DNA of 64,000 bases. It comes from a virus. Lineage: Duplodnaviria > Caudoviricetes. Positions within the stretch are counted from its first letter, which is position 1. Every line of letters begins with the position of its first letter. This document shows, in pieces, positions 1 to 16,271 of this stretch. The notes under the pieces were generated by a model. The model made no database searches and was not told the DNA's origin. It saw only the letters and a list, made by a program, of their open reading frames with translations. Both the position numbers and the translations under genes were made by a program. The stretch lies in the IMG/VR virus record IMGVR_UViG_3300028581_000010; one strand, 5' to 3'.

Positions 1-447
1 TGCGCCTACGTCGACGAGCTTGGAGTTGTTCTTGTAGAAGTCGATCGCCTCTTTCTTGTAGTCTTCGTACTTCTCAACGAACTCATCTACAAGGGCGTAG
101 AACTCATTCTTGTATTTCTCCAGCTCCTTATACACTGCAAGGAACATCTTCTTGGATACGAAGTGCGACTGAGGTACCGTAGGCAACCTGTGAGAGTTGC
201 CATATAGGTAGTTGCGCGCCCGTCCCTGAAGGCTCTTGAACTTGTTGTATACTTCCGGCTTGATCAGCATCTTCTTACCTAGCTTGATCACATCCGGAAG
301 CTTGTTGTCCAGCTTGATATCACCCTCTGTGAGGGAGTAACTCATCCCCCACATACCGATGCTGACGCAGACCAGCTTTCCATCCTGGAATAGGCGGTCG
401 TAATACTTCTGTAATGTCTTAGTCGTATCCTGTTGGATATCTATCAT
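1..447 (-). CDS. DUF3150-like protein (runs off the left edge of the window)
   Basis: Hand translation MIDIQQDTTK...VCVSIGMWGMSYSL...KLGKKMLIKPEVYNKFKSLQGRARNYL...; ATG overlaps the ATPase stop (ATGA). Family assignment by resemblance only. Confidence 0.55.
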   Translation of the reverse strand, partial: MIDIQQDTTKTLQKYYDRLFQDGKLVCVSIGMWGMSYSLTEGDIKLDNKLPDVIKLGKKMLIKPEVYNKFKSLQGRARNYLYGNSHRLPTVPQSHFVSKKMFLAVYKELEKYKNEFYALVDEFVEKYEDYKKEAIDFYKNNSKLVDVGA

Positions 448-947
448 GATATGTCTATTTTGAGTTGGCGCATGGTTTCCTCGAAGCTCTCTGCTTGCCC
501 CTCGGTTGTGACCATGACGAGCTTGCCTCTGGCGCGCTTGCGCATGACGTCGAGATCCTCGGCGTGTGAGGCTGCGAATGGAATGAACGACCCCAGCGTA
601 TTGATGATGTGCTCATCTTTAACTTCTTTGCCCTCGGAGAAGGCATTGAACATGGAGTCCTTGAATACTTCCTCGATCTCCGCACCTGTGAAGGTGTCTG
701 TGGAGCGGACGAACTTCTTAATTGAGAAGTCAGCCGGAGAGCGACCATACTTGTTAACGACCACGTCCCAGATCTCCTTGCGGTCCTCGGCAGACGGTAG
801 ATCCATCCAGAACAGCTGGTCGAATCTTCCCTTACGGATTAGCGCCGGAGGCAGGATTGTGTGGTTGTTGGATGTGGCTACGATGAAGGCCGGGTTATTG
901 CGGTCGTTGAGCCAGGTCAGAAATGTACCAAATATACGGGAGCTTAC
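444..947 (-). CDS. Ycf46-like AAA+ ATPase, exon 2
   Basis: Begins VSSRIFGTFLTWL directly after the intron terminal G; contains ATSN, PPALIRKGRFD and FTGAEIE motifs. Confidence 0.9.
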   Translation of the reverse strand, partial: VSSRIFGTFLTWLNDRNNPAFIVATSNNHTILPPALIRKGRFDQLFWMDLPSAEDRKEIWDVVVNKYGRSPADFSIKKFVRSTDTFTGAEIEEVFKDSMFNAFSEGKEVKDEHIINTLGSFIPFAASHAEDLDVMRKRARGKLVMVTTEGQAESFEETMRQLKIDIS

Positions 948-1081
948 CAATTATGTTATCTTGCAGGCTTTTTATCCCACAAATCTGCAGCTTGTATTCG
1001 CTGCAGTTCAGCATATCTTTTCAACCCATAAGGTTGCCGAGGACTCGTGGCTAAGTTATATTCCTTCACAGGGTTCATTAG

Positions 1082-1990
1082 CTATGCGTTGCGCGTGTCC
1101 AGCCTTTTATGTCTAGACTTCCGCTCTGATTCCCGTTGCAGGGTTCCAGATTTTTTCCTCAGTTTTACAACAGGAATCTCTTCCTGAAGCGGCCAATATT
1201 GGCAATAACGTTCAAATTTTCTATCTAACCATACGCGAGCATCCTTATACATAAAGTCCATGACGGCCTTGGCTGCTTTTCTTCCACCTTTTGCATAAGT
1301 TTTTACCGCTCCGCATGTAGCAAGTTTTGTTCTAGTGTAGCCCTCGACATGTTGTTCGAAGACATCTTGAAGCATATTTAGGAATTGTTCCGTTCCAATA
1401 ATTGTAAGTCCTGGAGTCTTAGTTGCTGTATTGTACTTCAAACTACCGTCACCGTCAAAGTAACCTCGAATGAAATGCTTGAGTAACTTTGTTGGAACAA
1501 TTTCTGTGCTTGGAAAAACAACTTTCTCTGATTTAGCTGGTATACAGCCTAGTTTGATAAGTTGGTCGGACAGCCCTCTGTGGCATACCCGGAGTCTGCA
1601 ATACTCTTTATACTCGAATTTACGTTTCTTTTTGCAAAACGTAATTCTAGCATCCGGAGCGATCGCTTTCTTAAACTTTTCCAAGTGGTTAAGATCCTTA
1701 CTGTTAAGCTCTATTGAGATTTGTCCGCCACAATTCGAGCCATCTGCATATAAAAATCCTAACCAGTATGCTTTCTCTTCAGAGTCTATTACATCGAAGA
1801 AGTCTTCTACGTATTTATGTGTGGCGTACGCCGTGCATGTTCGTATAGGAATTCCTCTTGAAGTTATGACTCTAGACACCACATTACTGTCGTGCCTGAA
1901 CTTTTTTGCTATTTTTTTGATAGATAACTTGTCTACGTTGTATGCATGCAAGATCTTTTCTTCGTCTATGTTATTACTGTATTGGTTCAT
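1082..1990 (-). CDS. Intron-encoded double-motif LAGLIDADG homing endonuclease
   Basis: Motifs AYWLGFLYADGS and FIRGYFDGDGS; lies wholly inside the intron. Confidence 0.92.
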   Translation of the reverse strand: MNQYSNNIDEEKILHAYNVDKLSIKKIAKKFRHDSNVVSRVITSRGIPIRTCTAYATHKYVEDFFDVIDSEEKAYWLGFLYADGSNCGGQISIELNSKDLNHLEKFKKAIAPDARITFCKKKRKFEYKEYCRLRVCHRGLSDQLIKLGCIPAKSEKVVFPSTEIVPTKLLKHFIRGYFDGDGSLKYNTATKTPGLTIIGTEQFLNMLQDVFEQHVEGYTRTKLATCGAVKTYAKGGRKAAKAVMDFMYKDARVWLDRKFERYCQYWPLQEEIPVVKLRKKSGTLQRESERKSRHKRLDTRNA

Positions 1991-1996
1991 ACAGCA

Positions 1997-2024
1997 AACA
2001 TAGCAGATCTTACGCGCTTGTCAA
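1997..2024 (-). promoter_or_regulatory. Sigma70-type promoter inside the intron, giving a leaderless endonuclease mRNA
   Basis: TTGACA-N16-TATGTT with an extended TG; ATG lies 6 nt after the -10. Confidence 0.7.
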
Positions 2025-2035
2025 TACTTTTATCA

Positions 2036-3103
2036 ACCGGTGTCTCCCCTGCCCGATGTAGCGTCTGTGCTAAGGCTTTTCTCTACCTCATCCAGCAGAA
2101 TAACGCACTTGCCAATAGACTCGATGGTCTTGATGAGCTCACGCATGTTGCGCTCGGAGTCACCTACGAGGGACCCGAAGACCTTGCCGATGTCCAGATA
2201 GAACAGCGGGCAGTCGAACTCTTTGGCAATTGCTTTAGCCAACAGCGTCTTACCTGTGCCCGGAACCGAGGCGAGCAGAATGCCCTTCGGTAGAGGTAGC
2301 TTGTAGGCTCGGGCTGCTTTCGAGAATGCTTTCTTACGGGACTCGATCCATTTCTTGAGCCCGCTGAGCCCTCCAACCTGCTTGAAGCTGACGTCTGTCT
2401 CGATGTAGTCCAGCAGTTCTGTCTTCTTGAGCTGTGCGATCTTCTCTGTAAACACTGATGCAACAAACTTGTTGTCGAAGGCCATGTTCTCTACGTAGGC
2501 CATACTGAAGGCGTTCTCTACCTCAACGTGGGTCATGCCCTTGGCGGCCTCCACGGCAGCCTCGCGCACCTCGTTTGTGATGACCAGCTTGTCTTTCTTG
2601 GCGTCTTCCTTGGCTTTATTGACCGACTCCAGAATGAAGTTGAGCCGCTCGTTGATGGCCTCCTCAGTGGGAAGCGCGTAGTCTACGAGCTGTATCTCCT
2701 TCTCGAGCTCGGGAGGTATCGCAAACGTATGGCCAACGAATATGACCATGTTGCTGCGCGCCTTGAGGTTGTTCCAGGCGTTTCTGAACAGCCGAGTGAT
2801 GATAGGCTTGTCGAAGTGCTTGTGAAAGTCCTTCAGAATGAACACACAGTCCGTAGCCTTGTAGCTCTGGAGGTAGCGCAGCAGGTCCGCTGGCACGATA
2901 GTCTCCTCAGGATGCTCGTCGCGGGCACCCTCTGAAATCTCTTGTAGTCCTGTCTGGCAGTCCCATTCATGTATGCGCAGTTGTTTATCCTGCTTCATGA
3001 GGGAGATGATGTCCAGTCGAGCCCGCTGCTCTTCATGCGTCATTACCCATACGGCGGAATATGATGCATTCTTGTAGTTCTTAATCTTTGTTACGAAGTC
3101 CAT
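2036..3103 (-). CDS. Ycf46-like AAA+ ATPase, exon 1
   Basis: FILKDFH N-domain, Walker A SVPGTGKT, Walker B ILLDEVEK; spliced product is 523 aa. Confidence 0.9.
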
Positions 3104-9792: not shown

Positions 9793-9868
9793 TGGCTGTT
9801 CGTCTTGGACTCGAACCAAGAACCTTCGTCTTAACAGGACGAGACTCTGCCAATTGAGTTAACGAACA
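9793..9868 (-). tRNA. tRNA-Asn(GTT)
   Basis: Canonical 76-nt cloverleaf with encoded CCA. Confidence 0.95.
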
Positions 9869-11087: not shown

Positions 11088-12357
11088 CTCCAAAATCAAC
11101 CTTCCGAGCGTAGTTTCCAAGCTAGGTTTCTCTACCTCAGACTACGAATTTATCCGTATGCCTGTCTTCGGGTGGTTCGCCAAGTCCAAAAACTCCGACT
11201 TCATAGGCAATATCTTCAACTTCTTCGAGCCCGAGCAGTGGCCCAGGCTGTTCAGAATCATCAGCAAGGACTTCTCCGACTGCTACGACTTCAAGCTGCC
11301 CTACTCAGAGTATGCCGAGAGAAAGCTCTACAAGGAGCAGCTGACGCTCATGGAGTACCAGTCTGCCTGGCTGCTATCCAAGCACGAGGCCCGGACGCAT
11401 AGAATACGCCACAAGGGCGACGTCTGGTACGTGGAGGACGTCCTCAAGGATGTAGGCCTTCCTGCTCTACTGGAGAACGAGATAGGCTACCTGAGCGACA
11501 CGGTCATAAAGACCTTTCCTAAGCTGGACCTTACTACCAAGCAGCGCTACCAGAAGGTTATGGTTGTGCCCACGTTCTGCACGCCCAAGCATATAGCGTC
11601 TCTGGAGGTCTGCCGCATCAAGTCCATGGACGAGAGGGAGCTGGTCATAGAGAACGCCGAGAAGGGCTGGTACGGTAAGCACAACGTCGAAATCGTCAAG
11701 AATATGGACGAGCTCAAGATCAAGGTGGGTAACACCTGGGATTACAAGTGTGATTACTGGAACACCAAGCCTATAGAGATCTCGGATTCCATTGAAACAC
11801 ACCAACTTATAAAGATCTGGAGCGAAGCCAACCATACAGCCTTCACAAGAAGTCCGATCGATCTTTTAGTGGGCAAGGAAGGCACGGGCGATATAAAGCA
11901 CCATGTCGCACTCCTCAGCCATGCTCAAATACAGGAGCTAGAAAAAAAGACCGACCAGAAGTTGCTGGACTTCTGGGTGAAGTCCAAGGAGCAGCAGTTT
12001 GTTGTACACGACAATACGTTCATCAAGAGAGGAACAGCGTATTACATCATCAAAAAGAACAAGGATGAGGAGCAAATCTCCAACTTCTGCCTGGATATAG
12101 ACAAGATCAAGAAAAAGACGGATGCGGATGGCGAGGAGACATTCTACTGGTGCGGCAACATTCTGCACAACCAGGACGTTATTCCGTTCGAGATGAGCGA
12201 TCGCTACTTCACGTCGTGCTATCTCTTCGCCAAGGGCATGCGCAAGCAGTTCATGTCACTAGGCATAGGCATCCCGTTCATCAACGAGAAGTACATTAGG
12301 CAGCTGCTCAGTCTTATACAGCTGACGTGCTTCAACGTCAAGATAGAGAACGATTAG
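11068..12357 (+). CDS. Hypothetical protein, weak resemblance to degenerate primase-like proteins
   Basis: 429-aa ORF with the phage codon pattern; no intact catalytic motif recognised. Confidence 0.7.
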   Translation: MSPNVFNSKINLPSVVSKLGFSTSDYEFIRMPVFGWFAKSKNSDFIGNIFNFFEPEQWPRLFRIISKDFSDCYDFKLPYSEYAERKLYKEQLTLMEYQSAWLLSKHEARTHRIRHKGDVWYVEDVLKDVGLPALLENEIGYLSDTVIKTFPKLDLTTKQRYQKVMVVPTFCTPKHIASLEVCRIKSMDERELVIENAEKGWYGKHNVEIVKNMDELKIKVGNTWDYKCDYWNTKPIEISDSIETHQLIKIWSEANHTAFTRSPIDLLVGKEGTGDIKHHVALLSHAQIQELEKKTDQKLLDFWVKSKEQQFVVHDNTFIKRGTAYYIIKKNKDEEQISNFCLDIDKIKKKTDADGEETFYWCGNILHNQDVIPFEMSDRYFTSCYLFAKGMRKQFMSLGIGIPFINEKYIRQLLSLIQLTCFNVKIEND

Positions 12358-12438
12358 GCGCAGCAGGACTCGAACCTGCACGTCCTGATGGACAAGGGAT
12401 TTTAAGTCCCTTGCGTCTGCCAATTTCGCCATGCGCCC
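12355..12438 (-). tRNA. tRNA-Leu(TAA)
   Basis: Class II cloverleaf, loop CTTAAAA; CCA not encoded. Confidence 0.95.
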
Positions 12439-13413: not shown

Positions 13414-13488
13414 TACCCCAATCGAGGCTCGAACTCGAAGTCTCCAGGTTGAAAACCTAGCGTGTTAGACCAGTTACACTATTGGGGC
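13414..13488 (-). tRNA. tRNA-Glu(TTC)
   Basis: Cloverleaf with loop TTTTCAA; CCA not encoded. Confidence 0.93.
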
Positions 13489-14613: not shown

Positions 14614-14701
14614 TGCGCGAGGCGGGACTCGAACCCGCATGCTACTGTTATTTCGCGTCCGCCTCTAAAACGGAATTGTCTACCAATTTCAACACCCGCG
14701 C
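14614..14701 (-). tRNA. tRNA-Leu(TAG)
   Basis: Class II cloverleaf, loop TTTAGAG. Confidence 0.92.
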
Positions 14702-15851: not shown

Positions 15852-16271
15852 TGGTGGAGGTAGCGGGAGTCGAACCCGCGTGTTCAATACTTCTCTAACA
15901 CCTCTACGTGCGTAGTTTGATATTATTTTCGACTGTGGTCTGCTATCAAACAAACGGTGCCACAGCTTAGGCAGACCCGTCTGCCAGGGTGCGGATTACC
16001 GCCATCTTTTACCACGATTGACGCCGAGCGCTTTTCTTCACTCAGCCAGGTTACGTGACATCCTGAGTTCGATGACTGTTACAGTCCGCTTACGCGGCGA
16101 GCAGTTCGCGATCAACGCTCCCGAAGGAGGCGATCATCGCGTCAGCTTCTGCAACCGTCATTGCTTGATCCATAGGATTAGCATTTAGTTTTTGTTAGCT
16201 TTCAAGGTGCCCCGCTAACGAACCCACACGCAGTGCTTCAATACATATTGAGTCGAAGCCAGTATACCCCC
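15852..16271 (-). ncRNA. ssrA: tmRNA (420 nt)
   Basis: 5' GGGGGTA, 3' T-arm GCGGG-TTCGACT-CCCGC then TACCTCCACCA (G3.U70 pair); tag frame 16182-16090 = ANPMDQAMTVAEADAMIASFGSVDRELLAA*. Confidence 0.95.

What the first reader, a model, noticed from the sequence alone, without database searches (positions are those of the whole stretch)
948..2035. Group I intron in an unusual host gene, a Ycf46-like AAA+ ATPase
Seen: a complete P3-P9 core with P7 GCATA/TATGC instead of the common GACUA/UAGUC, and splicing that restores GDTG-VSSR just after Walker B. Established: phage group I introns are mostly reported in nucleotide-metabolism, polymerase, terminase and lysin genes. Inference: this is a new insertion site, and its occupation implies the ATPase is conserved and important for the phage.
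Basis: partly seen in the sequence, partly recalled or inferred. Interest (0 to 1): 0.62.

Follow-up and report, generated by a model that had tools for sequence, protein, structure and literature searches.

The report
Mobile group I intron splitting phage ATPase
The AAA+ ATPase gene of this lake-water jumbo phage is interrupted by a real, intact-looking self-splicing group I intron that carries its own homing endonuclease; it is one more member of a very common phage intron family, sitting at a site not seen occupied in any relative examined.

Summary
On the minus strand, exon 1 (3103-2036) and exon 2 (947-444) of a Ycf46/SpoVK-type AAA+ ATPase are separated by 1088 nt (2035-948). Intron-less homologues of 60% and 85% identity read GDTGVSSR without a break. 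The insert is a group I intron. Its P2-P9.1 helices, including the P3/P7 pseudoknot, co-vary across 41 related phage introns (83% of cells paired against 31-47% when slid). A covariance model of the 3' half finds the self-splicing Twort introns, so this is a Twort-like (IA2-type) intron that Rfam RF00028 misses. A 302-aa LAGLIDADG endonuclease ORF lies in the P1 loop and runs on into the core.

"Unusual host gene" is only partly right. About one in six homologue clusters of this gene is split elsewhere: at Walker A by the same family, and at Walker B by a Twort-like intron with an HNH ORF. Only this phage is split at GDTG|V. That site (ACCGGT|GTAAGC) resembles a relative's Walker A site (ACCGGT|AAAAGC). 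Splicing itself is untested, because no RNA data exist. This scan had already noted the family on other DNA.

The parts
2036..3103 (-). Exon 1 of the AAA+ ATPase (356 codons; N-terminal domain, Walker A GTGKT, Walker B LLDEVE; ends ...GDTG, last base U)
   Evidence: ORF list; Pfam AAA profile positions 1-73; PHROG 8638, E 1e-74; homologues
948..2035 (-). Group I intron, 1088 nt, Twort-like (IA2-type) with a non-canonical P7
   Evidence: Covariation on 41 members; model R1 scores 145 bits; intron-less homologues fix both borders
444..947 (-). Exon 2 of the AAA+ ATPase (VSSRIFGTFLTW..., sensor 1, arginine finger region, lid; stop at 446-444)
   Evidence: Pfam AAA 81-130 and AAA_lid_3; PHROG 8638 positions 389-541; tblastn q355-521
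2031..2039 (-). P1 5' strand: exon CGGU (2039-2036) plus intron UGAUA (2035-2031); the splice-site U2036 forms the U·G wobble
   Evidence: A 9-bp run with 1198-1190 is the best anywhere in the precursor. The same register is seen in L005, L006 and L163, whose junctions were fixed by protein homology
1190..1198 (-). Internal guide sequence (P1 3' strand) UAUUGGCCG, directly 5' of P2; the family consensus here is TTGCCG
   Evidence: inference for pairing in vivo
2020..2038 (-). Local hairpin GGUUGAUA/UAUUGAC that copies the guide sequence and can sequester the 5' splice site (U2036 pairs with A here)
   Evidence: Sequence; a 7-bp run; function unknown
1082..1990 (-). LAGLIDADG homing endonuclease ORF (302 aa; motifs LGFLYADGS and IRGYFDGDGS) in the P1 loop. 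The conserved part ends at residue ~264, where P1' begins. The last ~38 codons read through P1'-P7, and the stop UAG lies in P7
   Evidence: Pfam PF14528; PHROG 4645, E 2e-59, residues 6-264; tblastn to intron endonucleases of Staphylococcus, Bacillus and crAss phages
1171..1186 (-). P2 hairpin CAGGAA-GAGA-UUCCUG
   Evidence: Co-varies by eye in L005, L006 and L163. It is poorly aligned by MAFFT: 44% paired
1157..1162 (-). P3 5' strand CUGAGG, followed by the A-rich J3/4
   Evidence: P3 pseudoknot: 6 of 6 pairs with double changes, 75% paired
1093..1150 (-). P4-P5-P6-P6a domain (P4 UCUG/CAGA, P5 CCC/GGG, P6 GCG/CGC, P6a GUCUAG/CUGGAC)
   Evidence: RNAalifold recovers P4, P5, P6 and P6a on its own; counts
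1083..1087 (-). P7 5' strand GCAUA
   Evidence: 41 of 41 paired, AU:30 and GC:11 at the middle pair
1050..1082 (-). P7.1/P7.2 extended hairpin between P7 and P3' (GCUAA...UUAGC, inner CCU-GUGA-AGG, internal loop UGAA / AAUAUAA)
   Evidence: P7.1 99% paired with 4 of 4 pairs co-varying; P7.2 89% paired
1037..1049 (-). Conserved joining stretch CACGAGU (1049-1043) and P3 3' strand CCUCGG (1042-1037)
   Evidence: CCA.GAG is invariant in A1 and A2; P3 counts
1022..1036 (-). P8 hairpin CAACC-UUAUG-GGUUG
   Evidence: 92% paired, 5 of 5 pairs co-vary
1011..1021 (-). J8/7 AAAAGA and P7 3' strand UAUGC
   Evidence: Invariant or near-invariant columns; P7 counts
985..1006 (-). P9 hairpin CUGCAGC-GAAUACAA-GCUGCAG
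   Evidence: 82-84% paired and co-varying; aligned to Twort P9 by R1
961..982 (-). P9.1 hairpin UUGUGGG-AUAAAAAG-CCUGCAA
   Evidence: 92% paired; the loop motif found more than 112 IMG/VR contigs
948..960 (-). 3' tail GAUAACAUAAUUG ending in the terminal G (948)
   Evidence: GAUAACA is invariant in the family; Twort introns end GUAACAUAAUU(G)

Best explanation
This is a mobile group I intron of the Twort-like (IA2-type) phage class, 1088 nt long, inserted in the Ycf46/SpoVK-type AAA+ ATPase gene between the codons for Gly356 and Val357 (GDTG|VSSR). Shown: the RNA can form the full group I architecture, namely P2, the P3/P7 pseudoknot, P4-P6, P7.1/P7.2, P8, P9, P9.1 and a terminal G, and every one of these helices co-varies in a family of more than 110 phage introns. 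Inferred: after transcription, the guide sequence UAUUGGCCG, about 840 nt downstream, pairs with the exon-intron boundary CGGU|UGAUA. An external guanosine bound at P7 attacks after U2036. The freed exon then attacks after G948, which restores an uninterrupted 523-aa ATPase reading frame. The endonuclease ORF sits in the P1 loop, so it does not disturb the core. Its reading frame runs on through the core to a stop in P7. By analogy with its relatives, the enzyme cuts intron-less alleles near ACCGGT|GTAAGC and the intron is copied in by repair. The intron family recognises GGU-ending sites through a GCC guide sequence. This site is probably a secondary, look-alike target of an intron lineage that elsewhere sits in Walker A loops.
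For: The junction is proved by contiguous homologues. Intein reading is excluded: three stops follow GDTG and exon 2 is in another frame. The structure was tested on alignment A1: 82.8% of cells paired against 31-47% slid, 52 of 60 pairs with double changes, and 0 of 500 shuffles as high. RNAalifold found P4, P5, P6, P6a, P7, P7.1, P8, P9 and P9.1 without my input. Model R1 of the 3' half gives 142 and 139 bits on family members not used to build it (L163, L138). It finds Twort orf142 introns 2 and 3 and the insert in Twort nrdE at E 1e-5 to 1e-4 per genome. Rfam RF00028 confirms the orf142 introns. The 9-bp P1 places U·G at the exact exon end, and the same register holds in L005, L006 and L163. 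The HEG belongs to an intron-endonuclease family. Both borders are present in DNA contigs of four runs.
Against: There is no RNA evidence: no RNA run holds the sequence. Rfam RF00028 gives no hit even at E 10 on 331 nt. P1 must form over about 840 nt, and a local hairpin competes for the splice site. No convincing P10 was found. A 9-bp run somewhere in a shuffled precursor is common (35% of shuffles), so P1 rests on its position and on the three other introns. MAFFT aligned P2 and P6 poorly (44% and 55% paired).
Confidence: 0.88

Rival explanations
1. The intron is a decayed, non-splicing relic, and the ATPase gene is a pseudogene or works as two fragments. Exon 2 would then be translated from the TTG at 950-948.
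For: Splicing is untested. A TTG start codon overlaps the last intron bases. Rfam does not recognise the intron. Split genes around free-standing endonucleases are known in T4-like phages (from my own knowledge).
Against: All helices are intact in this copy, and all family-invariant positions are kept (47 invariant columns in A1). R1 scores it as high as any member. Both exons keep full-length similarity to intact homologues with no stops or frameshifts. The TTG is simply part of the conserved tail ...AAUUG, and no ribosome-binding site precedes it. The HEG is also intact.
Confidence: 0.07
2. A free-standing homing endonuclease gene, not an intron, was inserted and split the gene.
For: The LAGLIDADG ORF makes up 83% of the insert.
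Against: The 250 nt downstream of the conserved HEG part form a co-varying group I core shared with ORF-less members of the family. The borders obey the U / terminal G rule.
Confidence: 0.03
3. The insert is an intein, removed at the protein level.
For: LAGLIDADG domains are common in inteins. One Brevibacillus phage homologue is annotated 'putative intein-containing protein'.
Against: TGA, TAA and TGA stops follow GDTG directly, and exon 2 is in a different frame from exon 1 and the HEG. There are no splicing-block residues.
Confidence: 0.01

Closest known systems
Staphylococcus phage Twort group I introns (orf142 introns 2 and 3, nrdE intron; subgroup IA2; crystal structure of orf142-I2, Golden et al. 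2005, cited in PMC3984707)
   Same: They share the same order of elements from P7 to the end: J8/7, P7', CUGAAC, the P9 hairpin, GAAG, the P9.1 hairpin and the tail (G)UAACAUAAUUG with terminal G. R1 aligns them full length. A peripheral hairpin lies between P7 and P3'. The host is a phage protein-coding gene.
   Different: P7 is GCAUA/UAUGC instead of GACUA/UAGUC. The P9.1 loop is AUAAAAAG. Rfam RF00028 scores the Twort orf142 introns 64-101 bits but does not see this one. The two orf142 introns that R1 matches lie in an ORF-free stretch, whereas here a LAGLIDADG ORF sits in the P1 loop.
The same intron family in other phages: crAss-like phage cr6_1 ATPase (L005), Bacillus phage PJN02 RecD-like helicase (L006), IMG/VR jumbo-phage AAA+ ATPase (L163/L164)
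   Same: They share the same core with co-varying helices, the same GCC guide sequence and GGU| 5' splice site, and a homologous LAGLIDADG ORF in the P1 loop (36% identity to L163's). R1 scores them 142-146 bits.
   Different: Those three sit between the Gly and Lys codons of Walker A (GTG|KT, GMG|KS, GTG|KS). This one sits 72 codons further on, at DTG|VS, in a loop after Walker B.
Phage T4 td / nrdB / nrdD introns with I-Tev endonucleases (subgroup IA2, from my own knowledge and PMC3984707)
   Same: These are self-splicing phage introns that carry a homing endonuclease in a peripheral loop and are inserted at conserved codons.
   Different: No sequence-level match was found: the R1 hit in T4 has E 0.34, on the wrong strand inside the inh gene. 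Their ORFs are GIY-YIG or HNH types in P6a or P9.1, not LAGLIDADG in P1.

Membership tests
Group I intron | Conserved core: P3-P8 and P4-P6 domains with the P3/P7 pseudoknot | tested here: met
   All helices form in the window. Covariation on 41 sequences: 82.8% paired, 52 of 60 pairs with double changes
Group I intron | 5' splice site after a U that forms a U·G wobble in P1 with an internal guide sequence | tested here: met
   U2036·G1193 lies within a 9-bp P1. The same register holds in three relatives whose junctions were set by protein homology. Pairing in vivo is inferred
Group I intron | Terminal G at the 3' splice site | tested here: met
   G948. The exon junction is fixed independently by L003 and P0002
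Group I intron | Guanosine-dependent self-splicing | not testable with these tools
   No RNA run is listed; this needs an in-vitro assay or RT-PCR
Group I intron | Match to Rfam RF00028 at its gathering score | tested here: not met
   No hit at E up to 10. The model also misses L004-L006 and the Twort nrdE insert, but it finds the Twort orf142 introns. Gaps of this model for phage introns are reported in PMC11878797
Subgroup IA2 (Twort/T4 type) | Extra P7.1/P7.2 pairings next to P7, and relatedness to recognised IA2 introns | tested here: met
   P7.1 is 99% and P7.2 89% paired, both co-varying. R1 links the family to the Twort introns at E 1e-5. The formal subgroup models (GISSD) were not available
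LAGLIDADG homing endonuclease (two-motif, monomeric) | Two LAGLIDADG motifs with acidic residues, and homology to intron-encoded enzymes | tested here: met
   Motifs LGFLYADGS and IRGYFDGDGS; PF14528; PHROG 4645, E 2e-59. Cleavage activity was not tested
Ycf46/SpoVK-type classic AAA+ ATPase (host gene) | AAA domain with Walker A, Walker B and lid, about 520 aa with an N-terminal extension | tested here: met
   PF00004 and PF17862 are split over the exons. PHROG 8638. JGI names for homologues include 'SpoVK/Ycf46/Vps4 family'. No NCBIfam model reaches its cut-off

The most novel reading that the evidence does not exclude
The GDTG|VS site is a DNA-level look-alike of the Walker A site that this intron lineage occupies in a sister phage's copy of the same gene. 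ACCGGT|GTAAGC and ACCGGT|AAAAGC share 10 of the 12 central bases. The window would then preserve a natural case of ectopic transposition of a P-loop-targeting group I intron to a new site within its host gene. The move could have happened by relaxed endonuclease specificity or by guide-sequence-directed reverse splicing.
Probability: 0.3. Interest if true: 0.5.

Novelty: new member of a known kind. Interest (0 to 1): 0.3.

Why it matters
The gene should be annotated as one 523-aa ATPase and not as two fragments plus an endonuclease. The same correction applies to the crAss cr6_1 ATPase and the PJN02 helicase. More broadly, the window adds a well-mapped member to a very abundant family of phage introns: more than 112 IMG/VR contigs matched one 18-base motif. 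The standard Rfam model does not detect this family, so such introns are systematically missed in phage annotation. This ATPase is split at Walker A, at Walker B and at this loop, by two intron lineages confirmed in DNA. That makes it a good natural system for asking how introns choose and switch sites. None of this changes current understanding of group I introns.

Tried and rejected
- Rfam gave no group I hit on the window, with either the gathering or the E-value threshold. This was rejected as evidence of absence after controls.
- My first two fold models were rejected once relatives showed co-varying P7.1, P3 and P8. One had P3' directly after P7 pairing with AUUGGC. The other had a long P8, AACCC...GGGUU.
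- My first structure string wrote P3 and P7 with the same bracket type and therefore mis-paired them. This was corrected.
- blastn of the locus against GenBank phages found no nucleotide relatives of the core.
- No whole genome is held for the window.
- No RNA holder was listed.
- Laying DNA contigs found no intron-less allele.
- The R1 hits in T4 (E 0.34) and SPO1 (E 0.77) lie inside coding genes on the opposite strand and were discarded as chance.
The truncated homologue P0117 (...VG + NC) could therefore not be checked; its only IMG/VR relative, L185, is uninterrupted.
- No P10 pairing was found.
- A rough count shows 23 of 110 family members followed by a Lys codon, 9 of them K[ST]. This gives only mild support to a P-loop preference, because the terminal G was assigned by a crude rule.

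Full report
**What is there.** The window belongs to a lake-water jumbo phage. An AAA+ ATPase gene lies on the minus strand in two pieces. The ORF 3103-2036 (356 aa) carries an N-terminal domain, Walker A and Walker B. It ends ...SGRGDTG and is followed at once by TGA, TAA and TGA. The ORF that begins at 950 reads, from 947 on, VSSRIFGTFLTWLNDR... to a stop at 446-444. Pfam places positions 1-73 of the AAA profile in the first piece, and positions 81-130 plus the lid in the second. PHROG 8638 is split in the same way, 24-388 and 389-541. Between the pieces lie 1088 nt (2035-948) holding a 302-aa two-motif LAGLIDADG ORF at 1990-1082. This ORF matches PF14528 and PHROG 4645 (E 2e-59), and its relatives include ORFs annotated as intron-encoded endonucleases in Staphylococcus and crAss-like phages, plus endonuclease ORFs in Bacillus phages.

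**The junction.** Joining 2036 to 947 gives a 523-aa frame without stops. It aligns across the joint with Aeromonas phage HJ05 and mycobacteriophage Corndog gp96. A 60%-identical IMG/VR homologue (L003, 521 aa) and an 85%-identical protein (P0002, 525 aa) read GRGDTGVSSRI without interruption. tblastn of the intact protein breaks in the window at residues 354/355 and nowhere else. Only the split GGU|...G|GUA keeps both the length and the conserved Val. The intron therefore follows a U and ends in a G. An intein is excluded by the stops and by the frame shift between the exons.

**Is it a group I intron?** Rfam RF00028 gives nothing, even at E 10 on 331 nt. The decisive evidence came from relatives. 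The endonuclease's homologues in crAss-like phage cr6_1 (L005) and Bacillus phage PJN02 (L006) sit in inserts with the same layout, and their downstream parts are visibly homologous to the window's.

I aligned 41 members (A1). RNAalifold on its own predicted P4, P5, P6, P6a, P7, P7.1, P8, P9 and P9.1. I then projected the window's own helices onto the alignment, with P3 written as a pseudoknot. The counts were:
- 82.8% of cells paired, against 31-47% when the partner was slid by 1-3 columns;
- 52 of 60 pairs with changes on both sides;
- none of 500 shuffles as high.

P7 is paired in all 41 members, and its middle pair is A-U in 30 and G-C in 11. P7.1 is 99% paired with all four pairs co-varying. 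P3 has double changes in all six pairs. The order of elements is P2, P3, A-rich J3/4, P4-P5-P6, P7, P7.1/P7.2, P3', P8, J8/7, P7', P9, P9.1 and a terminal G. That is the group I architecture. P2 and P6 scored lower (44% and 55%), which I attribute to MAFFT placing length-variable hairpins badly.

**P1 and the ORF position.** The stretch directly 5' of P2 is UAUUGGCCG (1198-1190), where the family consensus is TTGCCG. It pairs over 9 bp with exon CGGU plus intron UGAUA (2039-2031), which puts U2036 opposite G1193. Such a run somewhere in a shuffled precursor is not rare (35% of shuffles). What matters is the position. The same register gives GGU|AAUA with UAUUGCC in L005, GGU|AAA with UUUGCC in L006, and CGGU|AA with UUGCCG in L163. 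In all three the exon junctions were set by protein homology. The endonuclease ORF therefore lies in the P1 loop. Its conserved part stops at residue ~264, exactly where P1' begins. The remaining ~38 codons read through the core to a UAG inside P7. A local hairpin (2038-2020) repeats the guide sequence and could hold the splice site before the real guide is transcribed; this is speculation.

**Link to known introns.** A covariance model of the 3' half (R1) scores the window at 145 bits. It scores family members it was not built from at 139-142 bits. In complete phage genomes it finds three places in Twort at E 1e-5 to 1e-4: two in the orf142 region and one between the two ribonucleotide reductase large-subunit ORFs. 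The alignments show the shared CUGAAC, P9, GAAG, P9.1 and ...UAACAUAAUU tail, with GACUA/UAGUC in Twort where this family has GCAUA/UAUGC. RF00028 confirms the orf142 introns at 64-101 bits. Twort introns are self-splicing and one has a crystal structure (PMC3984707, citing Landthaler 2002 and Golden 2005). Phage introns of this kind are assigned to IA2, a subgroup now seen as heterogeneous and poorly covered by Rfam (PMC11878797, PMC11835236). The window's intron is thus a Twort-like, IA2-type intron from a branch with a different P7 that Rfam does not capture.

**The host gene and the site.** The ATPase is a classic-clade AAA+ protein that JGI names SpoVK/Ycf46/Vps4 family. No NCBIfam model reaches its cut-off. 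Of the 120 best homologue clusters, about 100 are full length, and the rest break down as follows:
- 14 stop at ...VIL(I/V)D, which is Walker B;
- 4 stop at ...PGTG plus a few foreign residues, which is Walker A;
- 1 stops at ...VG plus NC;
- only the window's own protein stops at GDTG.

DNA of relatives confirms two of these classes. L163 and L164 carry a 1.07-kb member of the same family (R1 142 bits) with a homologous LAGLIDADG ORF between GTG and K of Walker A. L138-L140 and L144 carry an ~0.8-kb insert between D and E of Walker B. That insert has an HNH ORF, a Twort-like 3' end, a P1 with U·G, and a weak RF00028 match of 26 bits in L144. The gene is therefore a frequent intron target, and the window's site is the rare one.

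The window's site resembles the Walker A site at the DNA level. The window has ACCGGT|GTAAGC and L163 has ACCGGT|AAAAGC, which is 10 of 12 bases. Four of those bases are needed for P1 anyway, and this comparison was made after the fact. Reviews describe both relaxed endonuclease specificity and reverse splicing as routes to new sites (PMC3984707). I rate a site switch from a P-loop site as possible (about 0.3), not shown.

**Reality of the DNA and expression.** Contigs from four lake-water runs cover both borders identically, and no intron-less joint was seen. No RNA run is on record, so splicing is inferred from structure alone.

**Verdict.** The claims of an unusual host gene and of implied importance are weakened. 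This scan has noted the same family before on other genomes, sitting after GGT codons and often in P-loops. My results agree with those notes for the four introns I mapped. This is a new member of a known kind, of modest interest.

Noticed in passing
window 15852-16271 (-); 9796-9868, 12355-12438, 13414-13488, 14614-14701 (-): Rfam finds a phage-encoded tmRNA (93 bits) and four tRNAs in the window.
   Followed up: no
L163/L164 4368-5446: The homologous AAA+ ATPase of another IMG/VR jumbo phage carries a member of the same intron family, with a 283-aa LAGLIDADG ORF, between GTG and K of Walker A.
   Followed up: yes
L139 4515-5352; also L138, L140, L144: The same ATPase in other phages is split between D and E of Walker B by an ~0.8-kb Twort-like group I intron with a 179-aa HNH ORF. 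RF00028 gives only 26 bits, in L144.
   Followed up: partly
L138 6952-7093 (+): A second strong R1 match (139 bits) lies about 1 kb downstream of the ATPase gene, so a neighbouring gene in that phage also holds a family member.
   Followed up: no
L005 1158-3117 (crAss-like phage cr6_1, NC_055894): The CDSs annotated 'non-ATPase regulatory subunit' and 'ATPase' are two exons of one P-loop ATPase, split GTG|KT by this intron family.
   Followed up: partly
L006 374-3813 (Bacillus phage PJN02): The RecD-like helicase is annotated as two CDSs. It is one gene split GMG|KS by a family member, and the intron endonuclease is annotated as two CDSs, possibly frameshifted.
   Followed up: partly
window 1738-1790: Contigs from all four runs match only this stretch, the first LAGLIDADG motif region, and then diverge. 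Related endonuclease genes therefore exist elsewhere in the same lake communities (tables 7 and 8).
   Followed up: no
window 2020-2038 (-): A local hairpin duplicates the guide sequence (UAUUGAC against UAUUGGCC) and pairs the splice-site U with an A. By eye, similar local pairings exist in L005 and L006.
   Followed up: partly
window 1-447 (-) and L003 5847-6845: The gene after the ATPase is conserved in the same position in the relative L003. Another note of this scan calls the neighbourhood a Ycf46/DUF3150/DUF1257/DUF2997 module.
   Followed up: no
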